This document shows positions 17,460 to 64,000 of a stretch of 64,000 nucleotides of DNA, in pieces. A program made the translations under genes and the position numbers. The notes beneath the pieces are model-generated. The model was not told the origin of the DNA and ran no database searches. It worked only from the letters and a program-made list of their open reading frames with translations. Within the stretch, counting starts at the first letter, position 1. Each line of letters starts with the position of its first letter. Origin of the DNA: a phage; the NCBI GenBank assembly GCA_012401045.1, contig GCA_012401045.1_4704.2. One strand, 5' to 3'.

Positions 17460-17535
17460 CGTATTTTACCTTTCTATGTTAGGTGGATTTCGGATAGAAG
17501 AATCAATGCATAAACTAATTTAAGTTTGTTAAGGT

Positions 17536-18438: not shown

Positions 18439-18523
18439 GTTGAGCTCCTTGATTACGATAAGGATGATTGCGGTTTTGTGGTGTTGGTAGGGCCCTAAAC
18501 AAATGAACCCTACTAATATTAGG

Positions 18524-19306
18524 TTAATCGGGATCGGCGTAGAAATGGTGAGGATAGCCGGAGTACGATCCCGCGTTACCGGTTATGGATTCTTTCTGGG
18601 AATCGACGACGAGTGCATAGAACTGTCGGGAATTTGTTAGCGTTGAGAAATAAGAGGAAAGGACTTTTTCATTCAACGCATCGCAAGGTAGACAGGTGCG
18701 ACCGCAAAACGTCACGATACGGCCGTCAGGATAGATCTCACGAATCATTCTCCACTCGCCAATATCGACTGGTGATGGCGCTGCTACACCACCTGTTATC
18801 GTTAAGTAACGATCGTACGTGGTATGGCATTCAGGATGAACGTAAATCGGTTGGGCATCAATACTATCGTTTTCTGTTTGATCTTTATTCACGTATACCT
18901 CAAGGTAGATTGTTGGTAACCCGGTTAGAACGCCAGTGTCACGACGTTTTTTGGTAATCCGGGGACGGATATTATCGAGCACGCCTTCCAGTTTTTCTGC
19001 GACTTCGTCAGCCGGTAATATATACCCGTATGTTGGTTCTGGGTCATCACCGTGGCTAAATAAGATACGACAGTCGTTTTTATTAAATTCTATATCTTCA
19101 GGTGGGAAGATGATGACGCGAACCGTATGGCGTTCTGCGATATAAAATCCTTCAGGCCCCTCAGTTTTGGTAAGTGTAAAGGACCAGGATGAATGATCTT
19201 CAAGTGACGTGCCTGCCAGGAAAAAGTCCGCCCGAATTGGTGCGTTCCATTTCGCGATCATATTGGCGTGACCAATAACGCCTAATTTTTGATAAATATC
19301 TGTCAT
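18524..19306 (-). CDS. hypothetical protein (260 aa), paralog of 17536-18438
   Basis: ORF track; GAGGA RBS; promoter/operator-like cassette immediately upstream. Confidence 0.8.
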   Translation of the reverse strand: MTDIYQKLGVIGHANMIAKWNAPIRADFFLAGTSLEDHSSWSFTLTKTEGPEGFYIAERHTVRVIIFPPEDIEFNKNDCRILFSHGDDPEPTYGYILPADEVAEKLEGVLDNIRPRITKKRRDTGVLTGLPTIYLEVYVNKDQTENDSIDAQPIYVHPECHTTYDRYLTITGGVAAPSPVDIGEWRMIREIYPDGRIVTFCGRTCLPCDALNEKVLSSYFSTLTNSRQFYALVVDSQKESITGNAGSYSGYPHHFYADPD

Positions 19307-47321: not shown

Positions 47322-47758
47322 GCATTCTCTCCTTGCAGTGCGTTAGCGAAAGCCGTTGCGAGTTGCGCAACCAGCTTAGGATCAACACCTTCGATAACGT
47401 CGGGCAGCCCTGCGGTTTCTTGGTCACGAACGGCGGAGGCTAATAACAGCATGGTTTCAGGTGCGGTCGGCTCATGCACCATGCGGTAACGCAGGCACCA
47501 GAAGTAGCGGGCAACGTCTAACGCATCGGCCAGCCCAATAACCAGTACCTTGTTCAGCTTATCCAGCCCTTCACGGATTTTAGGGAGATGTTCGCGAACG
47601 AAAATGCTATCTGCGGTCAGATCTTCTTTTTCAGCGAATACGGGCATGCTGTAACCAGCGATATAACCTGCGGCAATACTTAGCGCACGGGTCTGTTGTT
47701 CGGCTGGGAAATCACGTACCAGGTCTTTCAGCTGAACGGCGAAATCAGAAATATTCAT
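47318..47758 (-). CDS. hypothetical protein (146 aa)
   Basis: ORF track; AAAGGAA RBS. Confidence 0.75.
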   Translation of the reverse strand: MNISDFAVQLKDLVRDFPAEQQTRALSIAAGYIAGYSMPVFAEKEDLTADSIFVREHLPKIREGLDKLNKVLVIGLADALDVARYFWCLRYRMVHEPTAPETMLLLASAVRDQETAGLPDVIEGVDPKLVAQLATAFANALQGENA

Positions 47759-47790
47759 GTTAAATTCCTTTATAGTAAAAATAGAAGAGA

Positions 47791-49101
47791 TTAGGCGATA
47801 ATGGAGTCAAGAGTCGCTGCGGTTTTGAACAGATCGTTGTTCATTGTAGAAGAAAGGACTTGCTGAATTTCTTCCTGTTTAACCGCTTTACGAACCCCAG
47901 GACGAAGGATAAGCGTAACCATCTGTGAAAAGGTACGATTATTGTTCATCGCACTCAGCGTTTCATCGATTGTTTTGATGGCATCCAGCGTCATGGAACG
48001 AACATCGCTTGGGATATCACGATCTTTCAAGCGTATAATTAAATCTTGTTTGATTTTACGGAATCGTTCCATGTCGTTATCGTAAATGCTGTATGTCGGA
48101 TCTAACCAAACAGAAAGCGCGGTTACAGCGACAACAACCAACACGCCGATAGCACCAACAGAAGCTAAACCTATCGCCATCATAGAAGCTATAGTAGCAT
48201 CCATGATGAAGGAGAGCCAGAACATCGTTTTGGACTTCACGGAGTCTTTGCTATAAAGCCGATACATTTTAGCAAGCCCGCTAACGAGATACTCCCCACC
48301 GCCATGACGCGTAGCGAACTGATCAGCCATGAATTCGGAAGCAACGTCGGTATATCGTCCAGCGTTGTTTACGTTTCTTAACTGCATCGCTCTGTTAGAC
48401 ACGTAAACCGTGTACCAGACACTACCGTCGTCTGAATCACTGATTTTGTCTACGTCGACGTTGGTATCCAACGTTTTGTTTAACGCTTTCGCCAGTTCGA
48501 TACGTTTTACCTTATCGGTTGTCCCCAACAGTTCACGCTGTACGGTCATGATTGAGGCTTCGACACGAACCGTTTCCGACAATGTTTCAAGGAAGGTAAA
48601 TGCGTGCCCGATTTCATGCAGCATTATGGCTGCTTTTTCTTCCGGAAGAAAGGGTTCTGTCGCCGTTAGCAGTTCATACGTGATGGCAGAACGAATCTTC
48701 AATTCTTCAAAAATACCGTAAACACGACCTTTTTCTAAATCGACGTAACCGACAGGTGTATCTTTAATCTTCTTAAGGAGCGTAACACCATCAGCACCGC
48801 GCATCCATAACCGATGATAGTCTGCCAGGATTGTGTTGTTTGTCGAAATATCCGGCGGGTACACGTAGGCATTCATCCGGCCCATTTTCACGTCGACCGA
48901 GAATTCGATGTTCAACCCCGTATAGCGTTTAACCATCTCGGTTAAACGACCGTCCTTGAAAACGTTTAAAACCTCTTTTTTATCCAGTCCCTGTTTGCTT
49001 CTGAAGAACTCGGTCATTTCCTTGAACAAGGAACCATCTTGAAACTTGATGGCCTCCATCGTTAATTCGTCATGACCATACACGCGTTGTAGTAATGACA
49101 T
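47791..49101 (-). CDS. putative membrane-anchored zinc metalloprotease (HExxH)
   Basis: ORF track; motif MLHEIGHAF; hydrophobic stretch FWLSFIMDATIASMMAIGLASVGAIGVLVVVAVTALSVWL. Confidence 0.6.
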   Translation of the reverse strand: MSLLQRVYGHDELTMEAIKFQDGSLFKEMTEFFRSKQGLDKKEVLNVFKDGRLTEMVKRYTGLNIEFSVDVKMGRMNAYVYPPDISTNNTILADYHRLWMRGADGVTLLKKIKDTPVGYVDLEKGRVYGIFEELKIRSAITYELLTATEPFLPEEKAAIMLHEIGHAFTFLETLSETVRVEASIMTVQRELLGTTDKVKRIELAKALNKTLDTNVDVDKISDSDDGSVWYTVYVSNRAMQLRNVNNAGRYTDVASEFMADQFATRHGGGEYLVSGLAKMYRLYSKDSVKSKTMFWLSFIMDATIASMMAIGLASVGAIGVLVVVAVTALSVWLDPTYSIYDNDMERFRKIKQDLIIRLKDRDIPSDVRSMTLDAIKTIDETLSAMNNNRTFSQMVTLILRPGVRKAVKQEEIQQVLSSTMNNDLFKTAATLDSIIA

Positions 49102-49322
49102 TGTACACTCTCTAAATTTACGTAAATTTAAGGGCTAATGGATCGGCTGGCCGCACCAATCACAATGTGTCCGCTGCTATGCAACGGCATTCATAGAAAT
49201 ACCTTTTGACGGTAACATCACCGTTCATACCCCAAGCAATAAGAGTGGTCGGTTAAAAACAACAGAACGTGGGGATGATATAGAAAATCACCTTTTAACA
49301 CTTATTACGAGTTTATCAAGCC

Positions 49323-51074
49323 ATGAGCGAACAAGAACGAAAACCTAAGAAGAAACTGCTCGGTATTCAATGTCGACACATCAGCTATAACGAAGCGAAC
49401 GATGGCAGCAAGAACGACCTCATGATCGCAAAAGAGATCATGTTCTTTGATGACAATACGCAAGCGACGAACCTTCGCTTCTTTGAGAATTACAAACGTC
49501 CGTTTTGGGTGACGGTAGAGAGTAAACGTAAGAACAAATATAAAAAGGAAAGCGAGAAGCTCTCGCATGTGCGTCGCTACGATGTCCGCCAAAGCGAACT
49601 GGTTGAAAAGATCAGCTCGGTACTTTATAAAAGACGTGCTGACGATAACACCCGTTTACAGCAGCTTGCACGGAGTCCATACCTCTATGGAACGGACGTT
49701 AGCGCCAGCTGTTATTTAAAAACCCAGTACAACACAAAATGGCCGGAATACGTCGATAAATTACCCGCTTCCATTGCCTGTTTCGATATCGAAACCGACG
49801 TTGTCCACGGACACGGTAAGATCGTTTGTATGTCTATTACAATGGGATACAATGCGATACTTTGCTATACCAAGGACTTCGTTGGTCATATTCCGAATGC
49901 CATTGAGAAAACCCATGAGAAGATTCGATATTACCTGGCCGAACGTCTGAATACCAAAGAAGATCCCCACGCATTCGAAAAATATCAGTACGATGTTCGA
50001 ATCGTAGAAAGCCCGGCACAAGCGGTCATCCAATGCATGCAGAAGGTTCACGAATGGCAGCCGGATTATCTCCTTGGCTGGAATATCGCGTTCGATATTC
50101 CGCGCATGCTCCAGGCACTGAACGAGGAAGGGTATCGTCCCGAGGATGTTTTCTCCGATCCCCGTATACCACCTAAATATCGTATTGCTCGCTGGGTACC
50201 ACCGAAGACCGACAAGGTATCTGCTTCAGGTCGTAAAACCAACCTTACCCTTGAGCAAACCTGGCCGATGTTTTATACGATGGCTACGTATCAGGTTATG
50301 GATGCGATGTGTGGCTATAAGTTCGTTCGTTTAGGAAGACCGGATGAAGGACGCTATTCACTCGATGCGGTGTTAGAGCGAAATAAATGCCATACGAAAT
50401 TAAAAGCTATTCCTGGTACAGAGGGGTTCACGGAGCTTGCCTGGCACGAAGAGATGCAAACGAACCATCAAATCGACTACGGCGTATATAACCTTTGGGA
50501 TAACCAGGGTATTGAGGCGTTGGACCAGAAAACAAAAGACTATTCGATGACCATCCCTATCCGTTTAGCGGCGTCGGATTTGAAAGATTTCAGTTCTAAC
50601 CCTAAACGTATCTGCGATAAACTTTTCTTCGTTTATCTTAACCGTGGGGAAGTCATGGGATGTACCGCTGACGACATGACCCAGGAAGAAGATAAGTGGG
50701 TTATCTCACGAGCTGGACATATCGTCACATTACCATGCGATCTCATGGCTGACAACGGCATTCATCTCTTCTGGGATATGCCGAACCTGAGAAGTTATAT
50801 CCGTCTATTCGTTGCAGACCTTGACATTAGCAGTTCATACCCGAATGGGCAGATCCTGTTGAATCTATCCAGAGCGTGTGTTTTTCGCGAGCTCTCACGC
50901 ATTGAGGGCGTCTCTGACTATCAATTCAGGAAGTTAGGTATCAACTTTATTACCGGAGGTAAAACGAACGCTGTAGACTTCTGTAGAATCGTTTATAAAG
51001 CACCATCGATGTTTGAACTTTTAGAACATTTCGATGCAACGCGTCCAAAAGAGGAAGCGCGGACCATCGAATGA
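49323..51074 (+). CDS. family B DNA polymerase, N-terminal part (3'-5' exonuclease domain plus motifs A and probable B; no motif C)
   Basis: ORF track; Exo I FDIETD, Exo II NIAFD, Exo III YNLWD, motif A DLDISSSYPNG, possible motif B KLGINFITGG; protein ends ~35 aa later. Confidence 0.7.
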   Translation: MSEQERKPKKKLLGIQCRHISYNEANDGSKNDLMIAKEIMFFDDNTQATNLRFFENYKRPFWVTVESKRKNKYKKESEKLSHVRRYDVRQSELVEKISSVLYKRRADDNTRLQQLARSPYLYGTDVSASCYLKTQYNTKWPEYVDKLPASIACFDIETDVVHGHGKIVCMSITMGYNAILCYTKDFVGHIPNAIEKTHEKIRYYLAERLNTKEDPHAFEKYQYDVRIVESPAQAVIQCMQKVHEWQPDYLLGWNIAFDIPRMLQALNEEGYRPEDVFSDPRIPPKYRIARWVPPKTDKVSASGRKTNLTLEQTWPMFYTMATYQVMDAMCGYKFVRLGRPDEGRYSLDAVLERNKCHTKLKAIPGTEGFTELAWHEEMQTNHQIDYGVYNLWDNQGIEALDQKTKDYSMTIPIRLAASDLKDFSSNPKRICDKLFFVYLNRGEVMGCTADDMTQEEDKWVISRAGHIVTLPCDLMADNGIHLFWDMPNLRSYIRLFVADLDISSSYPNGQILLNLSRACVFRELSRIEGVSDYQFRKLGINFITGGKTNAVDFCRIVYKAPSMFELLEHFDATRPKEEARTIE

Positions 51075-51716: not shown

Positions 51717-52181
51717 TTAGATATCGTCATCCGTGGTGCCGTAGGACATATGCTGAATTAATTTTCTCGGCTCGATGAAAATACGACATGTGATAAACAC
51801 ATCGGGATCGTATTGCTCCACGCAACGTCCGAAGGTTTGTTTTGCGGCTTGGCGCATCGATGTTATTTCCTGATCGTTCATCGCATTATCGAATTCGATG
51901 TTGATCGTGATTTTATCGGGAAATAAATAGATAAAGTAATCGCCGCTGATACCACCATCATCAAAGTGACGTTCATTGTAGCACTGGACGAGCTTACCTT
52001 CACGTTCTTTCTGATACCATCCAAGGATACTATTAAGACCTCTGTCCACGCATTCGAATGCTTGAGTAATAACATCCTCAACGACGGATGCAGGCGTGGG
52101 ACCATTGAATAGACGATCTAAGCGCTTTTTCATCGATTTGGTTTTCTCGTTCATGATTTCTTTTCCTGTTATAATCGGCAT
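51717..52181 (-). CDS. hypothetical protein (154 aa)
   Basis: ORF track. Confidence 0.75.
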   Translation of the reverse strand: MPIITGKEIMNEKTKSMKKRLDRLFNGPTPASVVEDVITQAFECVDRGLNSILGWYQKEREGKLVQCYNERHFDDGGISGDYFIYLFPDKITINIEFDNAMNDQEITSMRQAAKQTFGRCVEQYDPDVFITCRIFIEPRKLIQHMSYGTTDDDI

Positions 52182-52221
52182 ACAACCCTTCCCCGGCCTG
52201 ATGGCTAGGGAAGGGGCTATG
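52179..52221 (-). terminator. GC-rich extended stem-loop, family member i (diverged)
   Basis: CATACAA-CCCTTCCCC...GGGAAGGGG-CTATG. Confidence 0.4.
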
Positions 52222-52229
52222 CTACGTTG

Positions 52230-52628
52230 TTATGCTTCGCAATCAGCTGAAGGCGTCGCGCCTTTCTTACCAGCGATACACCAAATCCGACACGCTGGGT
52301 AATGGTTAACCTCTAGAGAGCAAGGAATGTTATATTTCTCTTCCAGCGCATAAAGACATTTCGTTAGCTGCTCCAGCGCGTTCTCGTCGTGTCGTAACGC
52401 GTGGTGGCCTAATCGATGTTGGTCGTTCTTTATATACGCCTCGAAGAGAACATGTTGGCGATGTACGCTGACGTTTACAGCCTCGAGTATAGCTTGGTCG
52501 AGCATACGACTAAAGCACATCAACGAGTCAGATACGTTTTCTCGCTTAACCAGATCAATCATGGCGGGAATATACGAATGGTCGATGTTATCGATGACCG
52601 CTTTAGCGACGGAATCAGCAACGTTCAT
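52230..52628 (-). CDS. small protein, tandem paralog family A (copy 1)
   Basis: ORF track; start moved to internal Met to match paralog; MNVADSVAKAVIDNIDH versus MSIVESIVKAVNDNIDH. Confidence 0.7.
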   Translation of the reverse strand: MNVADSVAKAVIDNIDHSYIPAMIDLVKRENVSDSLMCFSRMLDQAILEAVNVSVHRQHVLFEAYIKNDQHRLGHHALRHDENALEQLTKCLYALEEKYNIPCSLEVNHYPACRIWCIAGKKGATPSADCEA

Positions 52629-52664
52629 CTTTTTAATCCCTAGTTTGTTATTGATCACGTATAT

Positions 52665-53060
52665 TTACTCTTTGACGTCAGTTGTCGTTTCGACATGCTT
52701 CTCACTACTGACGTACCAGAGCAGGTACGCTGGGAAAAGATTGACCTCTAAGCTAAATGGAATATTGTATTTCTCTTCCATTTTACAGAGATGTTCTTTA
52801 AGTAAATTTCTCGCGTCTCTGTCACCACGAACAGAGTGCCAGTCTAGTTCTTTGTTCTCCTTTACCAGGACCTCTACGATGATACGTTGCTCGTGAACCT
52901 CGGTTTTCACAGTGAAAAGTAAATCGCTGCTATCAAAACGGGTAAAACGAATGTATGAACCAGGTGTTTTTTCTTGTTTAATAATATCGATCATGGTAGA
53001 AATGCGCGGATGATCGATGTTGTCGTTAACAGCTTTAACGATGGATTCTACAATGCTCAT
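52665..53060 (-). CDS. small protein, tandem paralog family A (copy 2)
   Basis: ORF track; EEKYNIPFSLEVNLFPA versus EEKYNIPCSLEVNHYPA. Confidence 0.75.
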   Translation of the reverse strand: MSIVESIVKAVNDNIDHPRISTMIDIIKQEKTPGSYIRFTRFDSSDLLFTVKTEVHEQRIIVEVLVKENKELDWHSVRGDRDARNLLKEHLCKMEEKYNIPFSLEVNLFPAYLLWYVSSEKHVETTTDVKE

Positions 53061-53092
53061 TTTTTATCCTTAATGTTATCGATTTGGAAATA

Positions 53093-53860
53093 TTACTTAT
53101 TTTTGCTTTCTTTATAGACAGTTGTTACCCACGATGGGAAAGCCGGATGGAAACAGAGCGTGAACGTAACTGTCGTATCGTATTTAAACGCACAGTTCAC
53201 TAACCGGGTATCTAACGTTTTCCTTAATCCGTCATCATCGTTATCGATGATGGTCATATCTCTTAATATCCCAAGCACGTTAACGCCATCGGGTGTCTGG
53301 GTTACGACAAGTCGTCGTAATGGCCCGCATGTATAGTCACGTACAAATCCTTTCTTCGGGTCCGATACCCTGTTTAACGCATCGTGATTTTTGATGAATT
53401 CATCGGCGATACAATAGGTTTGTTCCCTTGCTTTATCGGGATCGTATTCTGCTAATAGTTCCTTCGTGTCGAACGTTATCATGTTATTATCATTCGATTC
53501 AGAAGGGAAGCATAAAACTAAACGAACAGGGTACTCGTATTGATCTGTTCTCGTTTCGAAAGCATTAGCTAAACACGGCTTGTATGCCTTTGCGTCGACA
53601 TTGTCCAAACATGGATGCAATAATGCATGAATAACGGCACCATCGTCAGTTAAACCGAATTCCAGAAATTGTACCCTATCAGTATCCGCTACGGTTTTCT
53701 GAAGGTACGCTTTACCGTTAACAATATCGGTATCCCACATATCGTCGTTTAACGATTCTTCAAACTTATCGAATATATGGTTTACGAGATTGACGAGTTC
53801 ATCAATACGGCACTGTTGGTTGAATTCGATTAATCGTTGAACTTTATCTTTGATAGACAT
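53093..53860 (-). CDS. hypothetical protein (255 aa)
   Basis: ORF track. Confidence 0.8.
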   Translation of the reverse strand: MSIKDKVQRLIEFNQQCRIDELVNLVNHIFDKFEESLNDDMWDTDIVNGKAYLQKTVADTDRVQFLEFGLTDDGAVIHALLHPCLDNVDAKAYKPCLANAFETRTDQYEYPVRLVLCFPSESNDNNMITFDTKELLAEYDPDKAREQTYCIADEFIKNHDALNRVSDPKKGFVRDYTCGPLRRLVVTQTPDGVNVLGILRDMTIIDNDDDGLRKTLDTRLVNCAFKYDTTVTFTLCFHPAFPSWVTTVYKESKNK

Positions 53861-53862
53861 GA

Positions 53863-54321
53863 TTACCCATTAGCTCCTTCTTCGTCTGGAGAGTATTCCA
53901 TCGTGTAGAATTCATAACCATCGGAAAACTTGAGTGTTAATGTAATAGGGAAATCGCACGGCATAGCTGATTTCGTAAATGCGTTATTAGCAACATCAGC
54001 CAACCGACGTATAGCATCAGTCCCGCTGACGCTGAACGGTAGTTGTATGTTGATAAGGATGCGGTGCTTGTAAACATGGAAAACAACGGTACTGTCAAGA
54101 TAAACGCTATGGAACGGTATTGTTGGGATGCGTTCCACAATGGAAAAATACGTCCCGTCATTATCGCTATGCCCCATCGACCAAATATCGGATTTGCGTA
54201 GATTTTGTTTGAGGGATTCGATACTTCGAGTGACGGTCTCATCAACAGGCGTGACGTAAGTGTCTTTATGCGAGTCGAAAAGTTCGTTGACGTTAGATTC
54301 GAATGAATACATTGTTGCCAT
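53863..54321 (-). CDS. small protein, tandem paralog family B (copy 1)
   Basis: ORF track; QLPFSVSGTDAIRRL...TLKFSDGYEFYTMEYSPDEEG. Confidence 0.75.
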   Translation of the reverse strand: MATMYSFESNVNELFDSHKDTYVTPVDETVTRSIESLKQNLRKSDIWSMGHSDNDGTYFSIVERIPTIPFHSVYLDSTVVFHVYKHRILINIQLPFSVSGTDAIRRLADVANNAFTKSAMPCDFPITLTLKFSDGYEFYTMEYSPDEEGANG

Positions 54322-54782
54322 TATTCTACCTCTTTCTTCATCTTCATCGGAACAGAGAGTGCTGTTATCTCTGTTCCATTATCCGGTTCATACTCCAATG
54401 TAACGAGATTGCAGCCATCCGATAATTCATAATCGATCGCTAGGGGGAACGAGATACCGTGCGACTTTATGCATTTACCAAATGTCTCGTTGGCTGTATA
54501 CATTAGAAGTTGCTTTGCGGCAAGCCCGTTTACGCTGAAAGGTAATTGTGCTGTCGCAGCGATACGATTATTGTAAACTCTGATATCGGTGATATCTACA
54601 ATCGTAGCATTGCCGTGTTGTGTTGTTGGAACGGATAGGTTGTAGAAGTAAGGTTCGGAGTCGGAATCGGGCTCGTTAAATAATTCCCAGCACCCGTCCT
54701 CCTGCAATCTTACTTCGAGTATTTCAAAGCTTTTAATTATCGATTCTACCAGCTGCTCACCGTAAGAATCCCATGTCGTCAT
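54321..54782 (-). CDS. small protein, tandem paralog family B (copy 2)
   Basis: ORF track; QLPFSVNGLAAKQLL...DYELSDGCNLVTLEYEPDNG. Confidence 0.75.
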   Translation of the reverse strand: MTTWDSYGEQLVESIIKSFEILEVRLQEDGCWELFNEPDSDSEPYFYNLSVPTTQHGNATIVDITDIRVYNNRIAATAQLPFSVNGLAAKQLLMYTANETFGKCIKSHGISFPLAIDYELSDGCNLVTLEYEPDNGTEITALSVPMKMKKEVE

Positions 54783-54853
54783 TTTTTAACACCTTCGACA
54801 CCTTTTAACCGATACGTGTCCCATCTAACAAGGGACACGATATCGTTGATTAA

Positions 54854-55354
54854 TTACTCTTCTGTGTTTTCATTGTCAGGATCGTAGTGGAATTCGAACA
54901 GCCCTGAACCGTCGTGTCCGTTGATTGTTAGTATAACGGGCATATCGAATCCTCGGACACGCGAATGAAAACATTGTGCTAATTTTAGTTTGGCGTATGC
55001 CGCTACTTCATTGACAGCAATACACGATTCACCTGTTATACTCAGTATAACGTCGATACTAACAACGTTGTCGTGCAACGCAAAACGCCAGCGATCGATA
55101 CGATTATTATCTTTATCGGTTGTCTCGTTTACGAGATAGACTTTATCGTCAACCGACAAAGCGGGACTCCAGCAACGATCGTTTATTAAATTCGCCTGGA
55201 GTTTTAGTATCGTCTGATCGATAATATCCCAACACGTAACCAGCGTGGTGTCAGGCACTGAGTAGAGAAGGGCGTGCACTTTATCCTTTATTTTAAGTGC
55301 TTCCGCAGGACGTCCGCAAATACCATGCATTTCAACTTTCTTATTCATATTCAC
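54854..55354 (-). CDS. small protein, tandem paralog family B (copy 3, diverged)
   Basis: ORF track; TINGHDGSGLFEFHYDPDNEN. Confidence 0.7.
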   Translation of the reverse strand: MNMNKKVEMHGICGRPAEALKIKDKVHALLYSVPDTTLVTCWDIIDQTILKLQANLINDRCWSPALSVDDKVYLVNETTDKDNNRIDRWRFALHDNVVSIDVILSITGESCIAVNEVAAYAKLKLAQCFHSRVRGFDMPVILTINGHDGSGLFEFHYDPDNENTEE

Positions 55355-57958: not shown

Positions 57959-59260
57959 TTAACTAATATAAAGTTCAGGATCGTAAGGCGCTAACGATAC
58001 ACTGGCGTTATGCATTGCTTTCATCATAGTGTTCATGAAAACGTTGTTTACACCGGTGATCTCTGCCCCGATCGCGTCTGGGGTTGGAGCCATCGCGTTA
58101 CCGCAACAGGTAGCACAGTATTCCAATGGGCCTGCTTTACAACGTTGAGGATCGCGTAACTTGATGGTTTGTCCTTCCAAGGAAGCAAGTAATTCAGCAT
58201 CAATAAGTTTAAGCGCCGCACCGTCGATCATGTAACGGCCGACAAGCAGCTTATCTTTGATATGATCGCGGTTTACCGTGAACAGAATATGTTCGTGGGT
58301 ACCGCAGTCGTCCATCGTGATTTTAAGGTTCTGTGTCGCACGTTGTGATTCTTTCGCCGTCTGTCCCGCTAAAGCGGTCAGTGCGCCACGTGAGAACGAA
58401 CCTGCACGTGCACTGTTGTTGTACTCCGCCCAATGGTCGACACGCATCCCTTCAGCCAGGCTGTGTGTGATAACGTTACGTTTACCAGGGTCAACGAAGT
58501 CGGCTTCAACCCCCATCATGATGTGTGTTTTCTTTCGAGTATTACCGAAACTCTTGCCTGGGTTAATATAGAACCCTTCCGATTCGTCGCCCTTAAAGGA
58601 TTCTTTATCCATTTTGGTTAGCGTGGCTTCGAGTTTGATCAGTTCTTCAGGCGTGAACTTACCTTCCTCTTGTAAGCGTGCTAACTCTTTATCGCGATAG
58701 GCAATAATATCATCATCGACCGTTAACGCTTTATCACTCATTGATGGAACAATTAAACGGTTGATAGCGGTTAATGCGCTGATATTGTTGGTGAATTTCT
58801 TCACTTCGCTTGCGTACAACGGACCAATTGGACGTTCGTTAGGATCGGGTATTCCCTCTTCAGGATCGTCCGCTACGCGTGGCGCAATCAGTGACTCCAG
58901 TGTACCGCTGGTCAACCGTCCTGCCTGGTATTCAATCTGAATACCGAAAGCATCATAAAGGACGTACATATTGAACAACGCTTCACCGAAGGTTGTGGTG
59001 GTTGTATTCTTAACCGACGGTAGATCACCAGGTGCAAGCTCCAATGACTCCCAGAAACTCAACAAGGGTTTTGTTGGCTCGGTTTCCCATTGGTGTTCTT
59101 CACCGTCGATGGTAACCGTAACGACGTTACCTTGACGACGTAATTTAGGCTGATACTTCTCAGCGCCGCCTTCCGTAAAAGCAAATGCGTCGTTAATCCA
59201 TTCAAGATAACGGTAGTGCCCTTCACGCATCGCGTAAAGGAAATATTCACGAGGTGTCAT
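57959..59260 (-). CDS. hypothetical protein (433 aa) with C-terminal Cys cluster
   Basis: ORF track; CKAGPLEYCATCCGNAMAP. Confidence 0.85.
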   Translation of the reverse strand: MTPREYFLYAMREGHYRYLEWINDAFAFTEGGAEKYQPKLRRQGNVVTVTIDGEEHQWETEPTKPLLSFWESLELAPGDLPSVKNTTTTTFGEALFNMYVLYDAFGIQIEYQAGRLTSGTLESLIAPRVADDPEEGIPDPNERPIGPLYASEVKKFTNNISALTAINRLIVPSMSDKALTVDDDIIAYRDKELARLQEEGKFTPEELIKLEATLTKMDKESFKGDESEGFYINPGKSFGNTRKKTHIMMGVEADFVDPGKRNVITHSLAEGMRVDHWAEYNNSARAGSFSRGALTALAGQTAKESQRATQNLKITMDDCGTHEHILFTVNRDHIKDKLLVGRYMIDGAALKLIDAELLASLEGQTIKLRDPQRCKAGPLEYCATCCGNAMAPTPDAIGAEITGVNNVFMNTMMKAMHNASVSLAPYDPELYIS

Positions 59261-59273
59261 GTAACAACTCCTT

Positions 59274-60152
59274 TTAAACCCGGGTCAGGTCACCGTGACG
59301 TGAAACGAACTCTGATAACGCTCGGGTTGCTTCTTTGGATTCTTCAGCCATCGGGAAGTTTGCGGTAATAAGTTCTCGTAAGACAGGGACGAGTTCATTA
59401 TCTTCGAGATCGGAAGCTAAGGCGAATGCAATCAGTTCTTGGGTGTATGCATACGGTTGCTGACGTAATGCAGTAAGCTGATCCCGACACTGCGACATTA
59501 GCAGGTCCAGTGGAACCGCTATCGTACCCCCTTCATCAATATACTGGCTGAACACCGGTGGGAACGCATCGCTGATGACACGAATACGTCGACGAATATG
59601 ATCCGGAATCTGGACGTTTTCTTCGTCGGCGACGTTTTCGCTATCTTTCTCCAGCTTCTTGGTCAGTACCTGCTGGATACGTGGGAGCAGGCTTGAATGC
59701 ACAAAACTGATTAATGATGCTACGTCCACAGCATCGACACCGTAAATATAATGCGCGCATTCCGCTAGCGCTTCAGCTGCGGTGTAGTCTTCATCTTCAA
59801 CGATAGCGAGTAGAAAAGCGGTATCGTCGTGTGTTTCCAGGTCTAATAACGTAGACGCTAGCGCATGAAGATATTTCAGGCTATCCAGAGTTAGCTGCCC
59901 TTCGTTAATTCGGATCCCGAAGGCAAGCAATTGTTGTTTATAAAGTTCGATACATCCGTTTGTTAAAATGATGTCTAATTCGTTTAAATCGTATTGTTCC
60001 CCAGCACCTGACAACATCGTACTGCAGAACGTTTCCAGTTGTTCACATTTAAAATCTTGGTATAAACGATGCATGCAGTGCTGTAACAGCGTACGCCTTG
60101 TTTCAGGGATCTTACCTTCTAACAAAGCCAAGACGGAATCAATCATATCCAC
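59274..60152 (-). CDS. hypothetical protein (292 aa)
   Basis: ORF track. Confidence 0.8.
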   Translation of the reverse strand: MDMIDSVLALLEGKIPETRRTLLQHCMHRLYQDFKCEQLETFCSTMLSGAGEQYDLNELDIILTNGCIELYKQQLLAFGIRINEGQLTLDSLKYLHALASTLLDLETHDDTAFLLAIVEDEDYTAAEALAECAHYIYGVDAVDVASLISFVHSSLLPRIQQVLTKKLEKDSENVADEENVQIPDHIRRRIRVISDAFPPVFSQYIDEGGTIAVPLDLLMSQCRDQLTALRQQPYAYTQELIAFALASDLEDNELVPVLRELITANFPMAEESKEATRALSEFVSRHGDLTRV

Positions 60153-60242
60153 TCCGATGCGGTAAATGTCTACTAGCTCTCATAATCTATTGAAGAAACT
60201 ACCAGCTTACGCCAACTTAGATTAATCAGGAGTAACCATCCC

Positions 60243-60716
60243 ATGCCAGTTTCATCCAAACCAAGAAAAAAATCCGTAGGAAACCCTAAAGCTCAGGAAA
60301 CAACAGCAATTCGTTGGGACGAGTTACGTGAACCTATCGAAAACTGCGAATTGTTATTGGGTACCCTGGGTGCGGCTATTTACCAAGCGACGCAACCCTG
60401 TCGTTTACGATTAACCCAAAACAAACGTGATGAGTTCGTTGCGTTATCAACAAGCACGAATAAAGATCTGACCGAACTTCAAACCGAGTTGACGACGATC
60501 AAGAACTCCATTACGCCGATGTACGGTAAAGAAGTTGATGAACAAAGTATTCTGTTACAGTACAACTACGGGATGTCGTTAATGAACATCCTGGAACGCG
60601 CATCCGATATTCTGCGTCCTGACGTTGCACGTCTAAGCCAACTGCGTGTCGAAGGGATGGAGAACCAGATCCGATTCGCTAACAGTGTTAAATCTCAAGG
60701 AGCCACCGAAGCATGA
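60243..60716 (+). CDS. hypothetical protein (157 aa)
   Basis: ORF track; GGAG RBS; 4-nt overlap with next gene. Confidence 0.7.
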   Translation: MPVSSKPRKKSVGNPKAQETTAIRWDELREPIENCELLLGTLGAAIYQATQPCRLRLTQNKRDEFVALSTSTNKDLTELQTELTTIKNSITPMYGKEVDEQSILLQYNYGMSLMNILERASDILRPDVARLSQLRVEGMENQIRFANSVKSQGATEA

Positions 60717-62398
60717 GCGAACAAGAAAAAGAAGTCGTGACGAATCAGGAAGCCGTTGAGCGTTCAGAGTCGTCCGTTGAAACTACGATTCCGGCAAGTT
60801 CCGAGCCGGTTGGTTCCGCACAGCAGGAAAGTAAAGACGAAGTCAGCACGACTAAAGAAGATGTAGTGGCTCCAGAAGCAACCCGTGAAGAAGAACCATC
60901 ACATCCACCACTAATCGATTTCTCGAAGGCGACGATACGTTTCCAATGCGAAGACATTCGTCCTAAGAGCCCGAAGAAAACAAAACGCCAGCCGTTGGTG
61001 TTACCGCTGTATTCTCCACGTGTGCAGACAACGTATTACCGGGAATACATCAACGAAGCAATGGATACCGTGCAAGCCATTGTCGCTCAACGCGGTAAAC
61101 CGACAGACGAACAATTTGATAAATTCAGTAAAGCGGTGGTGCAATCGGTTGCTGATGGACAATATCATCCGCGTGGCCCAGCTCACGATCGCGCCTTGGA
61201 ACGTAAGGGCAGTCAGTGGACTAACGTACCCGTAGACTCATCGGGTGTTGGTCGCGTTATTCCTGGCATTCCACAACCGAACCATATCCCTGATGATGTC
61301 GAAGCGCCGCTGACAGGAACCGATGCGATCTATTTTGCAATCCGCAATACGAAATCAGGTGCGCCTGCGGTAATGCCGTTATGGCATAGCGGTATTAAGC
61401 TGCAGTTCAATCCGCCGTCAAATGAACGTGTTGCAATTATGCACGAACGTATTGCACGCGATAAAATCCTGGGTGGACGTGATAGCACCGGTTTCCTGTT
61501 TTCGGCAACCTCGATTATCACCATGAAGCACGCAATCGAATTAGCGTTAGAATGCTGTTACATGGCCAACGTACCGAACCTGGATATCCAGCGTTTGAAA
61601 GACATTATCCCGGTTACCGATGTTCCGGCATTGTTGTTGAACGTGCTGGTAACCATGTATCCGTACGGATATCCTTACGTACAGACCTGCTATCAGAATC
61701 CAGAAACCTGCGACTATCGTGTTGAAGATACCGTAAGCTTTGCGAAACTCTATCAAGTTGACAACAGCGCAATAACCAAACGTATGCGACAGATCATGAC
61801 CGAAGGTCCGGTCATGACGGATGAACTTTTGCGTGAGTATGCAAACGAACTGGGTGAAACAAACTCCCGTACGCTGGATCTGTCCGACAACGGTTCTGTT
61901 ATCATTGAACTTGAAGTACCGAAGATCTCACGACAAATAGCCATGGGCGAACGCTGGTTAAGCGATACCCTGGAAGATCTGCGTGATATTCTATCGCGTC
62001 CGTCAATGACCGAAGAAGAGCGTGATCGTGTTATTCGTGAACGTCAGTTTTATAGCTGGATGCGTCAGTATGATGCGTGGATCAAATCGATGCACGTGTC
62101 AGTAAACGGTACCATGCGTCGTGTAAGCGATGCAGATACGGCAACGGTATTAGCACAGCTGTCACGAGACAGCGACCTTCGTGAACGTTATATTGACGGG
62201 TTGATGCAATTCATCGGTGATTCGACGATTGCGCTCGCAGCGATGCCTGCCTGGAAATGTCCGAAATGTAATGCCGATATTGCTGACAATCTGCGTGACC
62301 AGAAATACTACGATCTGATTGCTTTGGATGTACCCCAGCTTTTTTTTACCCTAAACTCCGTCCAATCTCTTCAGGAGGGGATGGACGCGGTATTCTAA
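60713..62398 (+). CDS. hypothetical protein (561 aa)
   Basis: ORF track; C-terminal CPKC pair. Confidence 0.85.
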   Translation: MSEQEKEVVTNQEAVERSESSVETTIPASSEPVGSAQQESKDEVSTTKEDVVAPEATREEEPSHPPLIDFSKATIRFQCEDIRPKSPKKTKRQPLVLPLYSPRVQTTYYREYINEAMDTVQAIVAQRGKPTDEQFDKFSKAVVQSVADGQYHPRGPAHDRALERKGSQWTNVPVDSSGVGRVIPGIPQPNHIPDDVEAPLTGTDAIYFAIRNTKSGAPAVMPLWHSGIKLQFNPPSNERVAIMHERIARDKILGGRDSTGFLFSATSIITMKHAIELALECCYMANVPNLDIQRLKDIIPVTDVPALLLNVLVTMYPYGYPYVQTCYQNPETCDYRVEDTVSFAKLYQVDNSAITKRMRQIMTEGPVMTDELLREYANELGETNSRTLDLSDNGSVIIELEVPKISRQIAMGERWLSDTLEDLRDILSRPSMTEEERDRVIRERQFYSWMRQYDAWIKSMHVSVNGTMRRVSDADTATVLAQLSRDSDLRERYIDGLMQFIGDSTIALAAMPAWKCPKCNADIADNLRDQKYYDLIALDVPQLFFTLNSVQSLQEGMDAVF

Positions 62399-62490
62399 TC
62401 GATCCGCGATACGGGTTACATGACGGACAACTTGTTCGTAATGATGAAAAAATCTGGGAACTGCTGTTAGCGCGTAAAGGCGACGGCGGC

Positions 62491-62820
62491 ATGAAGCTGA
62501 ACATCGAAATGGGTATTGCGTACGATACCATGTTTGGCTTGTACGATCGTGTTAACGAATGGACGCCGTTGAAATGGGTTGCTCAGCATCCCGCTGAAGA
62601 TCCCTGGGACAGATTGGGGATTAAACCCTTAATCGAAGATTATGTCCGATTCGGTATTAAAGAGTTCATGACGCTGGATGCGTTTTTAAAAGCACCGTAT
62701 CCTTACGCGCAAACGGTACTCAAAATCGCACAAGACGAACTGCGGAAACGTAGTGCGGTACTGGACGACGATGAGGACAAGTTACGACGAGAAGAAGAAC
62801 GTTTACGAAACGGAAAATAA
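62491..62820 (+). CDS. hypothetical protein (109 aa)
   Basis: ORF track; 2 nt before next gene. Confidence 0.6.
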   Translation: MKLNIEMGIAYDTMFGLYDRVNEWTPLKWVAQHPAEDPWDRLGIKPLIEDYVRFGIKEFMTLDAFLKAPYPYAQTVLKIAQDELRKRSAVLDDDEDKLRREEERLRNGK

Positions 62821-62822
62821 AA

Positions 62823-63331
62823 TGGCAAGATTTACCAGTTTGATTGGATTGGATATTTGGGAAACACCGGCTGACGTTCGGGTTATTCCTGTTAACACCG
62901 TCGGTGTGATGGGACGTGGTCTTGCCAAACAGGCAGCCGATCGTGTGCCCGGTCTTCTTGAAGCGTACCGTAAGCAATGTCAAGATGGGTTTAAGGTGGG
63001 CGAAGTCGTATCGTATCAGCAAGGCGAGAACGATCAGCTCACTTACGTGTTGTTTCCATCAAAATCGGATTGGCGTGAAAGAACACGACGCGAGTATATC
63101 GTTAACGGTTTACTGGCGTTAAAAGCATGGTTACTGGAGCTTCAGTTCGAAAGAGACGGCTTCTCATATCGGCGTCCGGCTGAACCGCTGATCGTTGCAA
63201 TTCCTCCGGTCGGTTCTGGTTGCGGTAATATCGGTTACGGACAATCCGAAACAATCCAGCCTCAATGGGTACGCGCACAAATCAAACAGTATCTTGCCAC
63301 CGTACCAAACGTTCATTTCTACTTGTTCTAA
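62823..63331 (+). CDS. macro-domain protein (ADP-ribose binding / hydrolase fold)
   Basis: Start at ATG (MARFTSL); motifs DVRVIPVNTVGVMGRGLAKQ (compare DAIVNAAN...GGGVAGAI) and VAIPPVGSGCGNIGY (compare hAFPxIGTGxxGxP). Confidence 0.55.
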
Positions 63332-63342
63332 TGCAAAGGTAA

Positions 63343-63385
63343 CATAACCCTCCTCCAACCCGTAAGGGAAGGAGGAGGGCTTATG
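63343..63385 (-). terminator. GC-rich extended stem-loop, family member l
   Basis: CATAA-CCCTCCTCC-AA-CCC-GTAA-GGG-AA-GGAGGAGGG-CTTATG between convergent genes. Confidence 0.5.
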
Positions 63386-63388
63386 CTG

Positions 63389-63763
63389 TTAATGTTCGTT
63401 CCAGATGGCATCTTCCGGTGGAACAATAGGATCTTTCTTCGGCATTGACGGTACTTCATGACGATGCTTACGGAATTGCCTATCGATAACCTCACGAAGC
63501 CGGTACGCATCAACCCATGTTGATTTATTGAACAGCTCCAATGTCACAGTTAATCGTGTTCTTGACATTGAATAGCTTTTCTTTGCAATCAAATTGGGAT
63601 AATTCAGTTGAGCGAACCACGCACGTATTTGTGCTTCGGTAAAAGCGATGCTGTAATAACTAAGTTTACCGTCATTAAAATCGTGCGCGTGGGTGTAACG
63701 TCCAGCGTAACGCCAGACAAGATGCACATTCAGATCGATCCATGGTGGGGTGGTATCAGCCAT
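63389..63763 (-). CDS. hypothetical protein (124 aa)
   Basis: ORF track. Confidence 0.7.
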   Translation of the reverse strand: MADTTPPWIDLNVHLVWRYAGRYTHAHDFNDGKLSYYSIAFTEAQIRAWFAQLNYPNLIAKKSYSMSRTRLTVTLELFNKSTWVDAYRLREVIDRQFRKHRHEVPSMPKKDPIVPPEDAIWNEH

Positions 63764-63858
63764 GTGTTACCCTCAACGATTCTTCATCACTTTACCCAGG
63801 CTTTCGATATTATCCCAAAAGCGATTTTTACTTGGCGCATCGCCGACGATAACCGACA

Positions 63859-64000
63859 TCAAATCACGACGTTCGCGACTGATGATGCCTTGTGATTTCC
63901 AGATCACCATCGTCCAGCAAGCGGCCAGAACGAACAGATGGTTAATGCTCGGTTTGGTTTGCGCGATGAACGCAAGCCATGCCCAGATACCGGTGTATAC
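63859..64000 (-). CDS. possible C-terminal fragment of a gene running off the right edge
   Basis: Hand translation of minus strand gives a stop-free frame from the edge to a TGA near 63859-63861; frame choice uncertain. Confidence 0.25.

What the first reader, a model, noticed from the sequence alone, without database searches (positions are those of the whole stretch)
62823..63331. Macro-domain protein: candidate ADP-ribosylation eraser
Both macro-domain signature blocks are recognisable in a ~169-aa stand-alone protein. Phage macro domains can remove ADP-ribose marks or degrade ADP-ribose-derived signals, so this is a plausible counter-defence factor, for example against DarT-like DNA ADP-ribosylation or NAD-derived signalling.
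Basis: partly seen in the sequence, partly recalled or inferred. Interest (0 to 1): 0.6.

Follow-up and report, generated by a model that had tools for sequence, protein, structure and literature searches.

The report
Phage anti-DarT macrodomain (AdfM) gene
This gene in a Goslar-like nucleus-forming jumbo phage of E. coli encodes a small DarG-type macrodomain enzyme that most likely strips toxic ADP-ribose marks off phage DNA; the family (AdfM) was described in 2026, so the finding is correct but already known.

Summary
It passes Pfam Macro (25.8 bits, cut-off 22). It matches the DarG models much more strongly: PADLOC 2.9e-22, NCBIfam antitoxin_DarG 4.3e-23, covering only the macrodomain part of each model.

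An AlphaFold2 model (pLDDT 87) matches DarG macrodomains best (T. aquaticus 5m3e, TM 0.79/0.87). TARG1 and then Poa1p follow. The DarG residues most sensitive to mutation, N22 and K80, are kept as N25 and K81. W83 and the glycine loop are also kept.

The window is 96% identical in DNA to the nucleus-forming E. coli jumbo phage Goslar, and the protein is 97% identical to Goslar gp83. Morgan et al. (Cell Rep 2026, PMC13309987) named this family AdfM and list Goslar gp83 as a homologue. They showed that PhiKZ gp104 (32% identical here) removes DarT2-made ADP-ribose from ssDNA. The PhiKZ, PhiPA3 and Asesino proteins enter the phage nucleus, and the PhiKZ and PhiPA3 genes are needed to resist DarTG2.

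The Goslar-type protein itself has not been tested. Verdict: real, already known, low interest.

The parts
62822..63331 (+). adfM-like gene: a 169-aa stand-alone DarG2-type macrodomain protein, 97% identical to Goslar gp83.
   Evidence: ORF and translation. Pfam Macro. PADLOC and NCBIfam DarG. AF2 model plus Foldseek to DarG 5m3e. 32% identity, E=3e-24, to PhiKZ gp104 (AdfM).
62894..62896 (+). Codon for N25, equivalent to T. aquaticus DarG N22 and PhiKZ AdfM N23. It contacts ADP-ribose; the PhiKZ N23A mutant has reduced activity.
   Evidence: Invariant column in alignments A1 and A3. Residue roles come from PMC5179494 and PMC13309987.
63062..63064 (+). Codon for K81, equivalent to the catalytic lysine (T. 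aquaticus DarG K80, TARG1 K84, PhiKZ K78, EPEC DarG K54). It sits in the F-P-S-K-S-D-W motif, and W84 corresponds to DarG W83.
   Evidence: Invariant K81 and W84. K80A inactivates T. aquaticus DarG. K54A inactivates EPEC DarG.
63212..63226 (+). Codons for the diphosphate-binding glycine loop G131-S-G133-C-G135, equivalent to T. aquaticus DarG G117-A-G119-N120-G121. N120 is replaced by C134 here.
   Evidence: G131, G133 and G135 are invariant or nearly so. The loop's role is described in PMC5179494.
63343..63385 (.). Strong hairpin between adfM and the convergent minus-strand gene at 63389-63763. It is a probable two-way transcription terminator and is annotated as a putative terminator in Goslar.
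   Evidence: Fold energy -29.1 kcal/mol, z=-4.7, 0 of 200 shuffles as stable. Goslar annotation. No T-run follows, so the consensus terminator scan did not list it.
62491..62820 (+). Upstream 109-aa gene (Goslar gp082 homologue, function unknown). Its stop codon ends one base before the adfM ATG, so the two genes are probably co-transcribed and translationally coupled.
   Evidence: PHROG 12109, function unknown. The same adjacency occurs in the divergent relative L004.
60243..62398 (+). Two further same-strand genes of unknown function (157 aa and 561 aa; Goslar gp080 and gp081 homologues). With the 109-aa gene and adfM they form a conserved four-gene plus-strand block, divergent from the RNA polymerase beta-subunit gene at 57959-59260 (-).
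   Evidence: The block order is conserved at 46-64% amino-acid identity in L004.

Best explanation
The gene encodes an orthologue of AdfM (anti-DarT factor macro), an orphan DarG2-type antitoxin carried by nucleus-forming jumbo phages (chimalliviruses).

Proposed mechanism. Host DarT2 toxins of DarTG2 systems use NAD+ to ADP-ribosylate thymines in single-stranded phage DNA. The phage makes this 169-aa macrodomain, which binds the ADP-ribose through the N25/glycine-loop pocket. It uses K81 to cleave the ribose-thymine bond, restoring unmodified DNA so that replication and packaging can proceed. It lacks the C-terminal DarT-binding domain of bacterial DarG, so it acts only by erasing the mark and not by sequestering the toxin. 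[quoted passage not shown]

Shown here: the fold, DarG-type family assignment, conserved catalytic residues, absence of a second domain, near-identity to Goslar gp83, and conserved synteny.

Shown by others, for orthologues only: ADPr-ssDNA hydrolase activity, nuclear localisation and protection from DarTG2.

Inferred: that the Goslar-type protein does the same in E. coli.
For: - Family: PADLOC DarG E=2.9e-22. NCBIfam antitoxin_DarG E=4.3e-23, matching only the macrodomain part of the model, positions 7-146 of 338.
- Solved structures by sequence: the best hits are DarG macrodomains 5m31/5m3e, 5m3i and 7omu.
- Fold: the AF2 model (pLDDT 87.3) matches DarG 5m3e best (E=2.3e-14, TM 0.79/0.87, rmsd 1.8). 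TARG1 follows at about 1e-9 and Poa1p at about 1e-7.
- Residues: N25, K81, W84 and G131/G133/G135 are conserved, and R32 replaces K29. Their roles are documented in PMC5179494.
- Orthology: full-length similarity to the experimentally characterised PhiKZ gp104, 32% identity, E=3e-24.
- Phage identity: the window is 96.3% identical to Goslar and the protein 97% identical to gp83. Goslar gp83 is listed as an AdfM homologue in PMC13309987, Fig. 1B.
- Orthologue experiments: PhiKZ AdfM removes DarT2-made ADP-ribose from DNA and rescues DarT2 toxicity. Deleting the gene in PhiKZ or PhiPA3 sensitises the phage to DarTG2 by 3 to 6 logs.
- Host: E. coli carries macrodomain-type DarTG, and the isolated macrodomain of EPEC DarG is sufficient as an antitoxin (PMC7003065).
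- Import route: Goslar has a functional PicA (PMC11087766).
Against: - No experiment exists on the Goslar-type protein itself. The paper tested PhiKZ, PhiPA3 and Asesino only.
- It is only 31-32% identical to the tested orthologues. It scores lower on the DarG profile (77.6 bits) than PhiKZ AdfM (132.9) or phiEco32 gp37 (152.9).
- The ADP-ribose-contacting N120 of T. aquaticus DarG is C134 here.
- The Goslar clade has two extra, low-confidence segments: residues about 108-122 and about 139-146, where pLDDT is about 58-63. The second lies next to the mobile substrate-grasping loop, so specificity could differ.
- Nuclear import is phage-specific and depends on a surface patch (PhiKZ residues 77-95) that is not conserved in sequence. 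Localisation therefore cannot be read from the sequence.
Confidence: 0.8

Rival explanations
1. It is a TARG1-like hydrolase whose main substrates are ADP-ribosylated proteins or RNA rather than DNA thymines. It would reverse host ADP-ribosyltransferase defences aimed at phage proteins or mRNA, or tune a phage-encoded transferase.
For: Human TARG1, a protein de-ADP-ribosylating enzyme with the same catalytic lysine, is the second-best structural neighbour (PMC5179494). The Goslar-clade loop differences, N120 to C134 and the extra segments, leave room for altered specificity.
Against: Sequence and fold are clearly closer to DarG than to TARG1: E=2e-14 with 29% identity against about 1e-9 with 17-20% identity. 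W84 is conserved; the equivalent W83 was proposed to stack on the thymine, and TARG1 has Ala there. The orthologues act on DNA and sit in the phage nucleus with the DNA.
Confidence: 0.08
2. It is a Poa1p-like ADP-ribose-1''-phosphate phosphatase or O-acetyl-ADP-ribose deacetylase with a housekeeping role in nucleotide or RNA metabolism. This is what the database labels imply ('phosphatase', 'Appr-1-p processing', 'Macro_Poa1p_like').
For: PHROG 335 is labelled 'phosphatase'. The Goslar annotation cites cd02901 Macro_Poa1p_like. Some metagenomic homologues are named O-acetyl-ADP-ribose deacetylase. Poa1p structures appear among the fold hits.
Against: Poa1p matches are much weaker (E about 1e-7, 15-17% identity, rmsd 5-6 A) than DarG matches. 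The labels are inherited generic names, not tests. The best match to a MacroD/YmdB-type NCBIfam model (ADP-ribose-binding protein) is only E=0.08 over 25 residues. The orthologue has a demonstrated DNA de-ADP-ribosylation role.
Confidence: 0.04
3. It degrades or sequesters NAD-derived immune signalling molecules, such as Thoeris gcADPR-type signals.
For: Only the general fact that macrodomains bind ADP-ribose-containing ligands. No tool result points this way.
Against: No similarity to known anti-Thoeris families was found in any search. The catalytic architecture is the glycohydrolase lysine type. The orthologues concentrate inside the phage nucleus, away from cytoplasmic signalling.
Confidence: 0.03
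4. It is a catalytically weak or inactive ADP-ribose reader retained for another nuclear function, for example recruiting repair factors to modified DNA.
For: Its DarG-profile score is lower than that of other phage homologues. N120 is substituted by C134 and loops are inserted near the binding site.
Against: The catalytic K81, N25, W84 and all three loop glycines are invariant across the Goslar clade and beyond. Purifying selection is evident, with 19 synonymous against 5 non-synonymous codon differences.
Confidence: 0.04

Closest known systems
AdfM (anti-DarT factor macro): PhiKZ gp104 and PhiPA3 gp108, Morgan et al., Cell Rep 2026 (PMC13309987)
   Same: Both are stand-alone macrodomains of about 160-170 aa encoded by a chimallivirus. 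The N termini align (MAEF / MARF). The N, K, W and glycine loop are conserved. Similarity runs the full length (32% identity, E=3e-24). Goslar gp83, 97% identical to the window protein, appears in the paper's own AdfM alignment.
   Different: Identity to the tested proteins is only about 31-32%. The Goslar clade carries its own sequence in the insertion after the long helix (residues about 108-122), plus an extra segment of about 8 residues after the glycine loop (about 139-146), and C134 in place of Asn. The gene neighbourhood differs from PhiPA3, with no similarity between the upstream genes. Activity, localisation and phenotype are untested for the Goslar type.
Bacterial DarG2 antitoxin macrodomain (T. 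aquaticus 5m31/5m3e, M. tuberculosis 5m3i, EPEC DarG)
   Same: These are the best sequence and structure matches. The catalytic Lys, the Asn, the Trp and the glycine loop are shared. The isolated DarG macrodomain is sufficient as an antitoxin.
   Different: The phage protein has no C-terminal DarT-binding domain: only positions 7-146 of the 338-position model are matched, and the score of 82 bits is far below the 250-bit equivalog cut-off. It is not paired with a darT gene. It is encoded by a phage and used against the host system.
AdfN: the NADAR-domain orphan antitoxin of T4-like phages against DarTG1 (PMC11825919; name as used in PMC13309987)
   Same: The strategy is the same. The phage carries only the enzymatic domain of the host antitoxin and erases the ADP-ribose that DarT puts on phage DNA.
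   Different: The fold is unrelated (NADAR, not macro). The target chemistry differs (ADPr-guanine made by DarT1, not ADPr-thymine made by DarT2). The phage group differs, and no nucleus is involved.
Human TARG1 (C6orf130)
   Same: It is the second-closest fold (TM about 0.7/0.8) and has the same catalytic lysine position.
   Different: Identity is 17-20%. TARG1 has Ala where DarG and this protein have Trp. It is a eukaryotic protein, known mainly as a protein glutamate de-ADP-ribosylase.
phiEco32 gp37 and other phage 'Appr-1-p processing' macro proteins
   Same: It is also a DarG-macrodomain-only phage protein with the conserved N and K (PADLOC DarG E=3.5e-45), and it also comes from an E. 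coli phage.
   Different: It is shorter (146 aa) and lacks the chimallivirus-type insertion. It is encoded by a 77-kb podophage (Kuravirus), which to my knowledge, not tested here, does not build a phage nucleus. It is about 29-31% identical. It is not mentioned in the one paper checked for it, PMC13309987; I did not search the literature further.

Membership tests
Macro domain (Pfam PF01661) | Profile match above the curated gathering score. | tested here: met
   25.8 bits against a cut-off of 22, E=1.1e-5, residues 23-141.
Macro domain (Pfam PF01661) | Three-layer alpha/beta/alpha macro fold. | tested here: met
   AF2 model with pLDDT 87.3 and pTM 0.85. 182 PDB matches with E<=0.001; the 50 listed are macrodomain structures or designed proteins that score as macro-like folds.
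DarG2/TARG1-type ADP-ribosyl glycohydrolase macrodomain | Closest relatives by sequence and structure are DarG macrodomains. | tested here: met
   PADLOC DarG 2.9e-22. NCBIfam antitoxin_DarG 4.3e-23. Top PDB hits by sequence and by fold are 5m3e, 5m31, 5m3i and 7omu.
DarG2/TARG1-type ADP-ribosyl glycohydrolase macrodomain | Catalytic lysine (T. aquaticus DarG K80, TARG1 K84) and Asn (T. aquaticus DarG N22). | tested here: met
   K81 and N25 are invariant in the 16-sequence alignment that includes the T. aquaticus DarG fragment and PhiKZ gp104.
DarG2/TARG1-type ADP-ribosyl glycohydrolase macrodomain | All ADP-ribose-contacting residues conserved. | tested here: inconclusive
   Kept: Q34 as Q37, G117/G119/G121 as G131/G133/G135, W83 as W84. 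Conservative changes: K29 to R32, T79 to S80. Changed: N8 to D11, T20 to P23, N120 to C134, H82 to D83. All positions are read from the alignments with residue roles.
Full-length bacterial DarG antitoxin (NCBIfam NF048014 equivalog) | Two-domain protein with a C-terminal DarT-binding domain, scoring above the equivalog cut-off and encoded next to darT. | tested here: not met
   82.1 bits against a 250-bit cut-off, with only model positions 7-146 of 338 matched. The protein ends at residue 169. Its neighbours are phage genes of unknown function, with no darT. It is therefore not a DarG proper.
AdfM (chimallivirus anti-DarT factor macro) | Homology to PhiKZ gp104 over the full length. | tested here: met
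   BLASTP 32% identity, E=3e-24, residues 1-162 against 1-155. The protein is 97% identical to Goslar gp83, which the defining paper lists as an AdfM homologue.
AdfM (chimallivirus anti-DarT factor macro) | Encoded by a nucleus-forming (chimalli-) phage. | tested here: met
   The window is collinear with Goslar and 94-98% identical to it. It carries a split-type phage RNA polymerase beta-subunit gene. Goslar forms nuclei and has PicA (PMC11087766). The chimallin gene itself lies outside the window.
AdfM (chimallivirus anti-DarT factor macro) | Hydrolyses DarT2-made ADP-ribose from ssDNA. | not testable with these tools
   Shown for PhiKZ gp104 only, where the N23A mutant is reduced.
AdfM (chimallivirus anti-DarT factor macro) | Imported into the phage nucleus in a PicA-dependent way. 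| not testable with these tools
   Shown for PhiKZ, PhiPA3 and Asesino. The recognition surface is phage-specific and has no shared motif.
AdfM (chimallivirus anti-DarT factor macro) | Needed for phage growth on DarTG2-carrying hosts. | not testable with these tools
   Shown for PhiKZ and PhiPA3 deletion mutants.
MacroD/YmdB-type macrodomain | Match to a MacroD/YmdB-type family model. | tested here: not met
   The best MacroD/YmdB-type NCBIfam model reaches only E=0.082 and 12.8 bits over residues 12-36. No MacroD or YmdB structure appears among the 50 listed fold matches.

The most novel reading that the evidence does not exclude
The Goslar-clade AdfM is a functionally diverged branch. Its differences are the clade-specific segments at residues about 108-122 and about 139-146, next to the mobile substrate loop, and C134 in place of the ADP-ribose-contacting Asn. 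These may retune it to the E. coli-type DarT2 motif (TTT/TCT). They might also broaden it to other ADP-ribosylated nucleic-acid or protein substrates. If so, it would counter more than DarTG2, or it would work outside the nucleus.
Probability: 0.1. Interest if true: 0.5.

Novelty: already known. Interest (0 to 1): 0.2.

Why it matters
The result confirms that a sequence-only reader can pick out a genuine counter-defence gene. AdfM shows that the phage nucleus is not a complete shield and that jumbo phages still need an enzyme to repair ADP-ribosylated DNA.

For this particular window the added value is small:
- A corrected start codon: 169 aa, not the 186 aa annotated in the Goslar RefSeq record.
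- A conserved six-gene neighbourhood in a divergent relative.
- The Goslar-type protein is a divergent, untested branch of the family, in a genetically tractable E. coli system.
- DarG-macrodomain-only proteins also occur in phages from other groups, such as phiEco32.

Tried and rejected
- Longer N-terminal forms: GTG at 62753 (192 aa) and ATG at 62771 (186 aa, as annotated for Goslar gp083). Rejected. The extension overlaps the end of the upstream gene. PhiKZ and PhiPA3 begin at the aligned MAEF. In the 46%-identical relative L004 the same frame upstream of the ATG is full of stop codons.
- Synteny with the PhiPA3 adfM neighbourhood: the upstream genes show no similarity. Synteny is conserved only within the Goslar lineage.
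- Consensus promoter and terminator scan of 60000-64000: fewer sigma-70-like sites than in shuffles and no canonical terminators. This is uninformative, because chimalliviruses transcribe with their own RNA polymerases. The hairpin was found by direct folding instead.
- DUF7242 (Pfam, 18 bits, below its cut-off of 27) and PHROG 2808 match only residues 4-56, the macro N-terminal block. I treated them as the same motif and not as a second domain.
- MacroD/YmdB, Poa1p phosphatase and anti-Thoeris readings: see the rival explanations. None is supported by family or fold ranking.
- I did not use the large representative-protein search, the metagenome or genome scans, or a second structure job. The identification was already unambiguous.

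Full report
**What is there**

It encodes 169 aa. The ATG follows the stop codon of the upstream 109-aa gene by a single base.

Longer forms are possible on paper. One is a GTG at 62753. The other is an ATG at 62771, which is the start used for Goslar gp083 in RefSeq (186 aa). Both are unlikely:
- The extension lies wholly inside the upstream gene.
- The PhiKZ and PhiPA3 orthologues begin at the aligned MAEF, against MARF here.
- In a 46%-identical relative (L004) the same frame is closed by stop codons right up to the ATG.

Downstream, a strong hairpin at 63343-63385 separates the gene from a convergent minus-strand gene. Its energy is -29.1 kcal/mol, z=-4.7, and 0 of 200 shuffles are as stable. 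Goslar annotates it as a putative terminator.

**Is it a macrodomain, and of which kind?**

- Pfam Macro is passed: 25.8 bits against a cut-off of 22.
- More specific models score far better: PADLOC DarG E=2.9e-22 and NCBIfam antitoxin_DarG E=4.3e-23.
- The NCBIfam match covers only positions 7-146 of the 338-position model and is far below the 250-bit equivalog cut-off. So this is the macrodomain half of DarG without the C-terminal DarT-binding domain.
- Among solved structures, the only sequence hits are DarG macrodomains: T. aquaticus 5m31/5m3e at 4.5e-15, M. tuberculosis 5m3i at 1.7e-11, and the Thermosipho DarTG fusion 7omu.
- An AlphaFold2 model built on 14 homologues is confident, with pLDDT 87.3 and pTM 0.85.
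- Foldseek ranks DarG first (5m3e: E=2.3e-14, TM 0.79/0.87, rmsd 1.8 A, 29% identity). TARG1 follows at about 1e-9, then Poa1p at about 1e-7. Viral and other macrodomains rank far lower.

**Catalytic residues**

Jankevicius et al. 2016 (PMC5179494) report the following for T. aquaticus DarG:
- K80 is the catalytic lysine and is shared with TARG1. K80A is inactive.
- N22A has the next strongest effect on turnover.
- K29E and G119E are also strongly inhibitory.
- W83 may stack on the modified thymine.
- ADP-ribose contacts N8, L9, T20, N22, V31, Q34, T79, G117, G119, N120 and G121.

Mapping through the alignments gives:

| T. aquaticus DarG | This protein | Status |
|---|---|---|
| N22 | N25 | kept |
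| K80 | K81 | kept |
| W83 | W84 | kept |
| Q34 | Q37 | kept |
| G117 / G119 / G121 | G131 / G133 / G135 | kept |
| K29 | R32 | conservative change |
| T79 | S80 | conservative change |
| N120 | C134 | changed |
| T20 | P23 | changed |
| H82 | D83 | changed |

N25, K81, W84 and the glycines are invariant across the 16 sequences aligned. The protein is therefore DarG/TARG1-type. MacroD/YmdB-type models barely register (E=0.08).

**Whose gene is it?**

The last 4 kb of the window is 96.3% identical to Escherichia phage vB_EcoM_Goslar. The whole window is collinear with Goslar positions 32-94 kb at 94-98% identity, apart from a few insertions.

The protein differs from Goslar gp083 at 5 of 169 residues, none of them catalytic. 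A further 19 codons differ only synonymously, which indicates purifying selection.

Homologues at about 31% identity are found in PhiPA3 (gp108) and in PhiKZ-like phages. There are 171 phage records in all with a match.

**What is known about the family**

[quoted passage not shown] They showed that:
- The PhiKZ, PhiPA3 and Asesino proteins localise to the phage nucleus.
- PhiKZ AdfM removes DarT2-made ADP-ribose from a DNA oligonucleotide, and N23A reduces this.
- It fully rescues DarT2 toxicity in E. coli.
- PhiKZ and PhiPA3 deletion mutants lose 3 to 6 logs of titre on DarTG2-expressing hosts.
- In those hosts, phage DNA becomes ADP-ribosylated and genome packaging fails.

Their Figure 1B alignment explicitly includes Goslar gp83 (YP_009820768.1). 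The window protein aligns with PhiKZ gp104 over its full length (32% identity, E=3e-24).

Earlier work showed that gp104 import depends on PicA and on a phage-specific surface patch, residues 77-95. That patch corresponds to about S80-L98 here and overlaps the catalytic K. The same work showed that Goslar has a functional, essential PicA (PMC11087766).

E. coli hosts do carry macrodomain-type DarTG. EPEC DarT modifies TTT/TCT in ssDNA, and the isolated DarG macrodomain suffices as an antitoxin (PMC7003065).

**Most likely mechanism**

The protein is an orphan antitoxin. It erases ADP-ribose-thymine adducts that host DarT2 places on single-stranded phage DNA, using the K81-centred active site. 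It most probably works inside the phage nucleus after PicA-dependent import. It cannot sequester DarT, because the DarT-binding domain is absent.

The structural and family steps are shown here. Enzymology, localisation and phenotype are shown only for orthologues about 31-32% identical. Transfer to the Goslar type is inference. I put this explanation at about 0.8.

**Differences worth recording**

- The Goslar-clade protein is the most divergent of the phage proteins compared against the DarG profile: 77.6 bits, against 132.9 for PhiKZ AdfM and 152.9 for phiEco32 gp37.
- Like PhiKZ and PhiPA3, it has an insertion after the long helix relative to bacterial DarG, at residues about 108-122 (pLDDT about 58). 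The sequence of that insertion is unrelated to theirs.
- It has an additional segment of about 8 residues at about 139-146 (pLDDT about 63), just after the glycine loop. That loop closes over ADP-ribose in DarG.
- The two extra segments, together with C134, are the only grounds for suspecting altered specificity.

**Genomic context**

The gene is the last of four plus-strand genes of 157, 561, 109 and 169 aa; the first three have no known function. They diverge from a minus-strand pair consisting of a 292-aa gene and a phage RNA polymerase beta-subunit gene.

The same six-gene order recurs in L004 at 46-64% amino-acid identity. It does not recur in PhiPA3.

**Rivals**

I considered five alternatives. 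All rank well below the main explanation, because both sequence and fold rankings favour DarG, the catalytic residues are intact, and the orthologues have a demonstrated DNA-repair role:
- A protein- or RNA-directed TARG1-like eraser.
- A Poa1p-like Appr-1''-p phosphatase.
- An O-acetyl-ADP-ribose deacetylase. The phosphatase and deacetylase readings are the source of the 'phosphatase' and 'Appr-1-p' database labels.
- An NAD-signal degrader.
- An inactive ADP-ribose reader.

**Verdict**

The object is a near-identical allele of a protein already listed in the literature as an AdfM homologue, so it is already known, and interest is low (0.2). The residual novelty lies only in the untested, divergent Goslar-clade features.

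Noticed in passing
window 17513-19301: A segment of about 1.8 kb is present in the window, where Goslar has only about 90 bp (Goslar 49568-49656). It carries two minus-strand ORFs of similar build, 17536-18438 (300 aa) and 18524-19306 (260 aa), that look like paralogues of each other. Function unknown.
   Followed up: no
window 51717-55354: An array of small minus-strand ORFs (131-255 aa) whose sequences look loosely related. It corresponds to the Goslar gp070-077 'hypothetical protein' cluster. The window has about 1.6 kb (52239-53876) and about 0.5 kb (54323-54875) with no counterpart in Goslar, and identity falls to 88-91% here. It appears to be a fast-evolving accessory-gene region.
   Followed up: no
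L005:1459-1899 (phiEco32 gp37, NC_010324.1 34833-35273): phiEco32, a 77-kb E. coli podophage (Kuravirus), encodes a 146-aa DarG-macrodomain-only protein. It hits PADLOC DarG at E=3.5e-45 and keeps the catalytic N and K. Macro-type orphan anti-DarT candidates are therefore not confined to chimalliviruses. tblastn found matches in 171 phage records, including cyanophage and Thermus phage. PMC13309987 does not mention phiEco32.
   Followed up: partly
L001:10751-11311 (Goslar gp083, NC_048170.1 92868-93428): The RefSeq start of Goslar gp083 (186 aa) is probably 51 nt too far upstream and overlaps gp082. The GenBank record MK327938 still labels the gene 'hypothetical protein'.
   Followed up: yes
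P0001 (protein collection): A 99%-identical copy of the protein sits on an 809-bp contig of an NCBI assembly labelled Salmonella enterica serovar Muenchen. It is closer to the window than Goslar is. This suggests that a Goslar-like phage was co-sequenced with, or infects, Salmonella.
   Followed up: no
window 57959-63331 and L004:3159-8510: A six-gene block is conserved in order and orientation in a metagenomic relative at 46-64% amino-acid identity. The block is RNA polymerase beta subunit (-), a 292-aa gene (-), then 157-aa, 561-aa and 109-aa genes and adfM (+). The 561-aa protein belongs to PHROG 4585, function unknown, E=2.6e-67.
   Followed up: partly
window 47634-50837: This 3.2-kb stretch corresponds to about 5 kb of Goslar (78000-82966), which includes the NUMOD1/HNH homing-endonuclease gene gp069. 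The window may lack that endonuclease, but the Goslar segment 78000-82117 was not fetched, so this is unverified.
   Followed up: no
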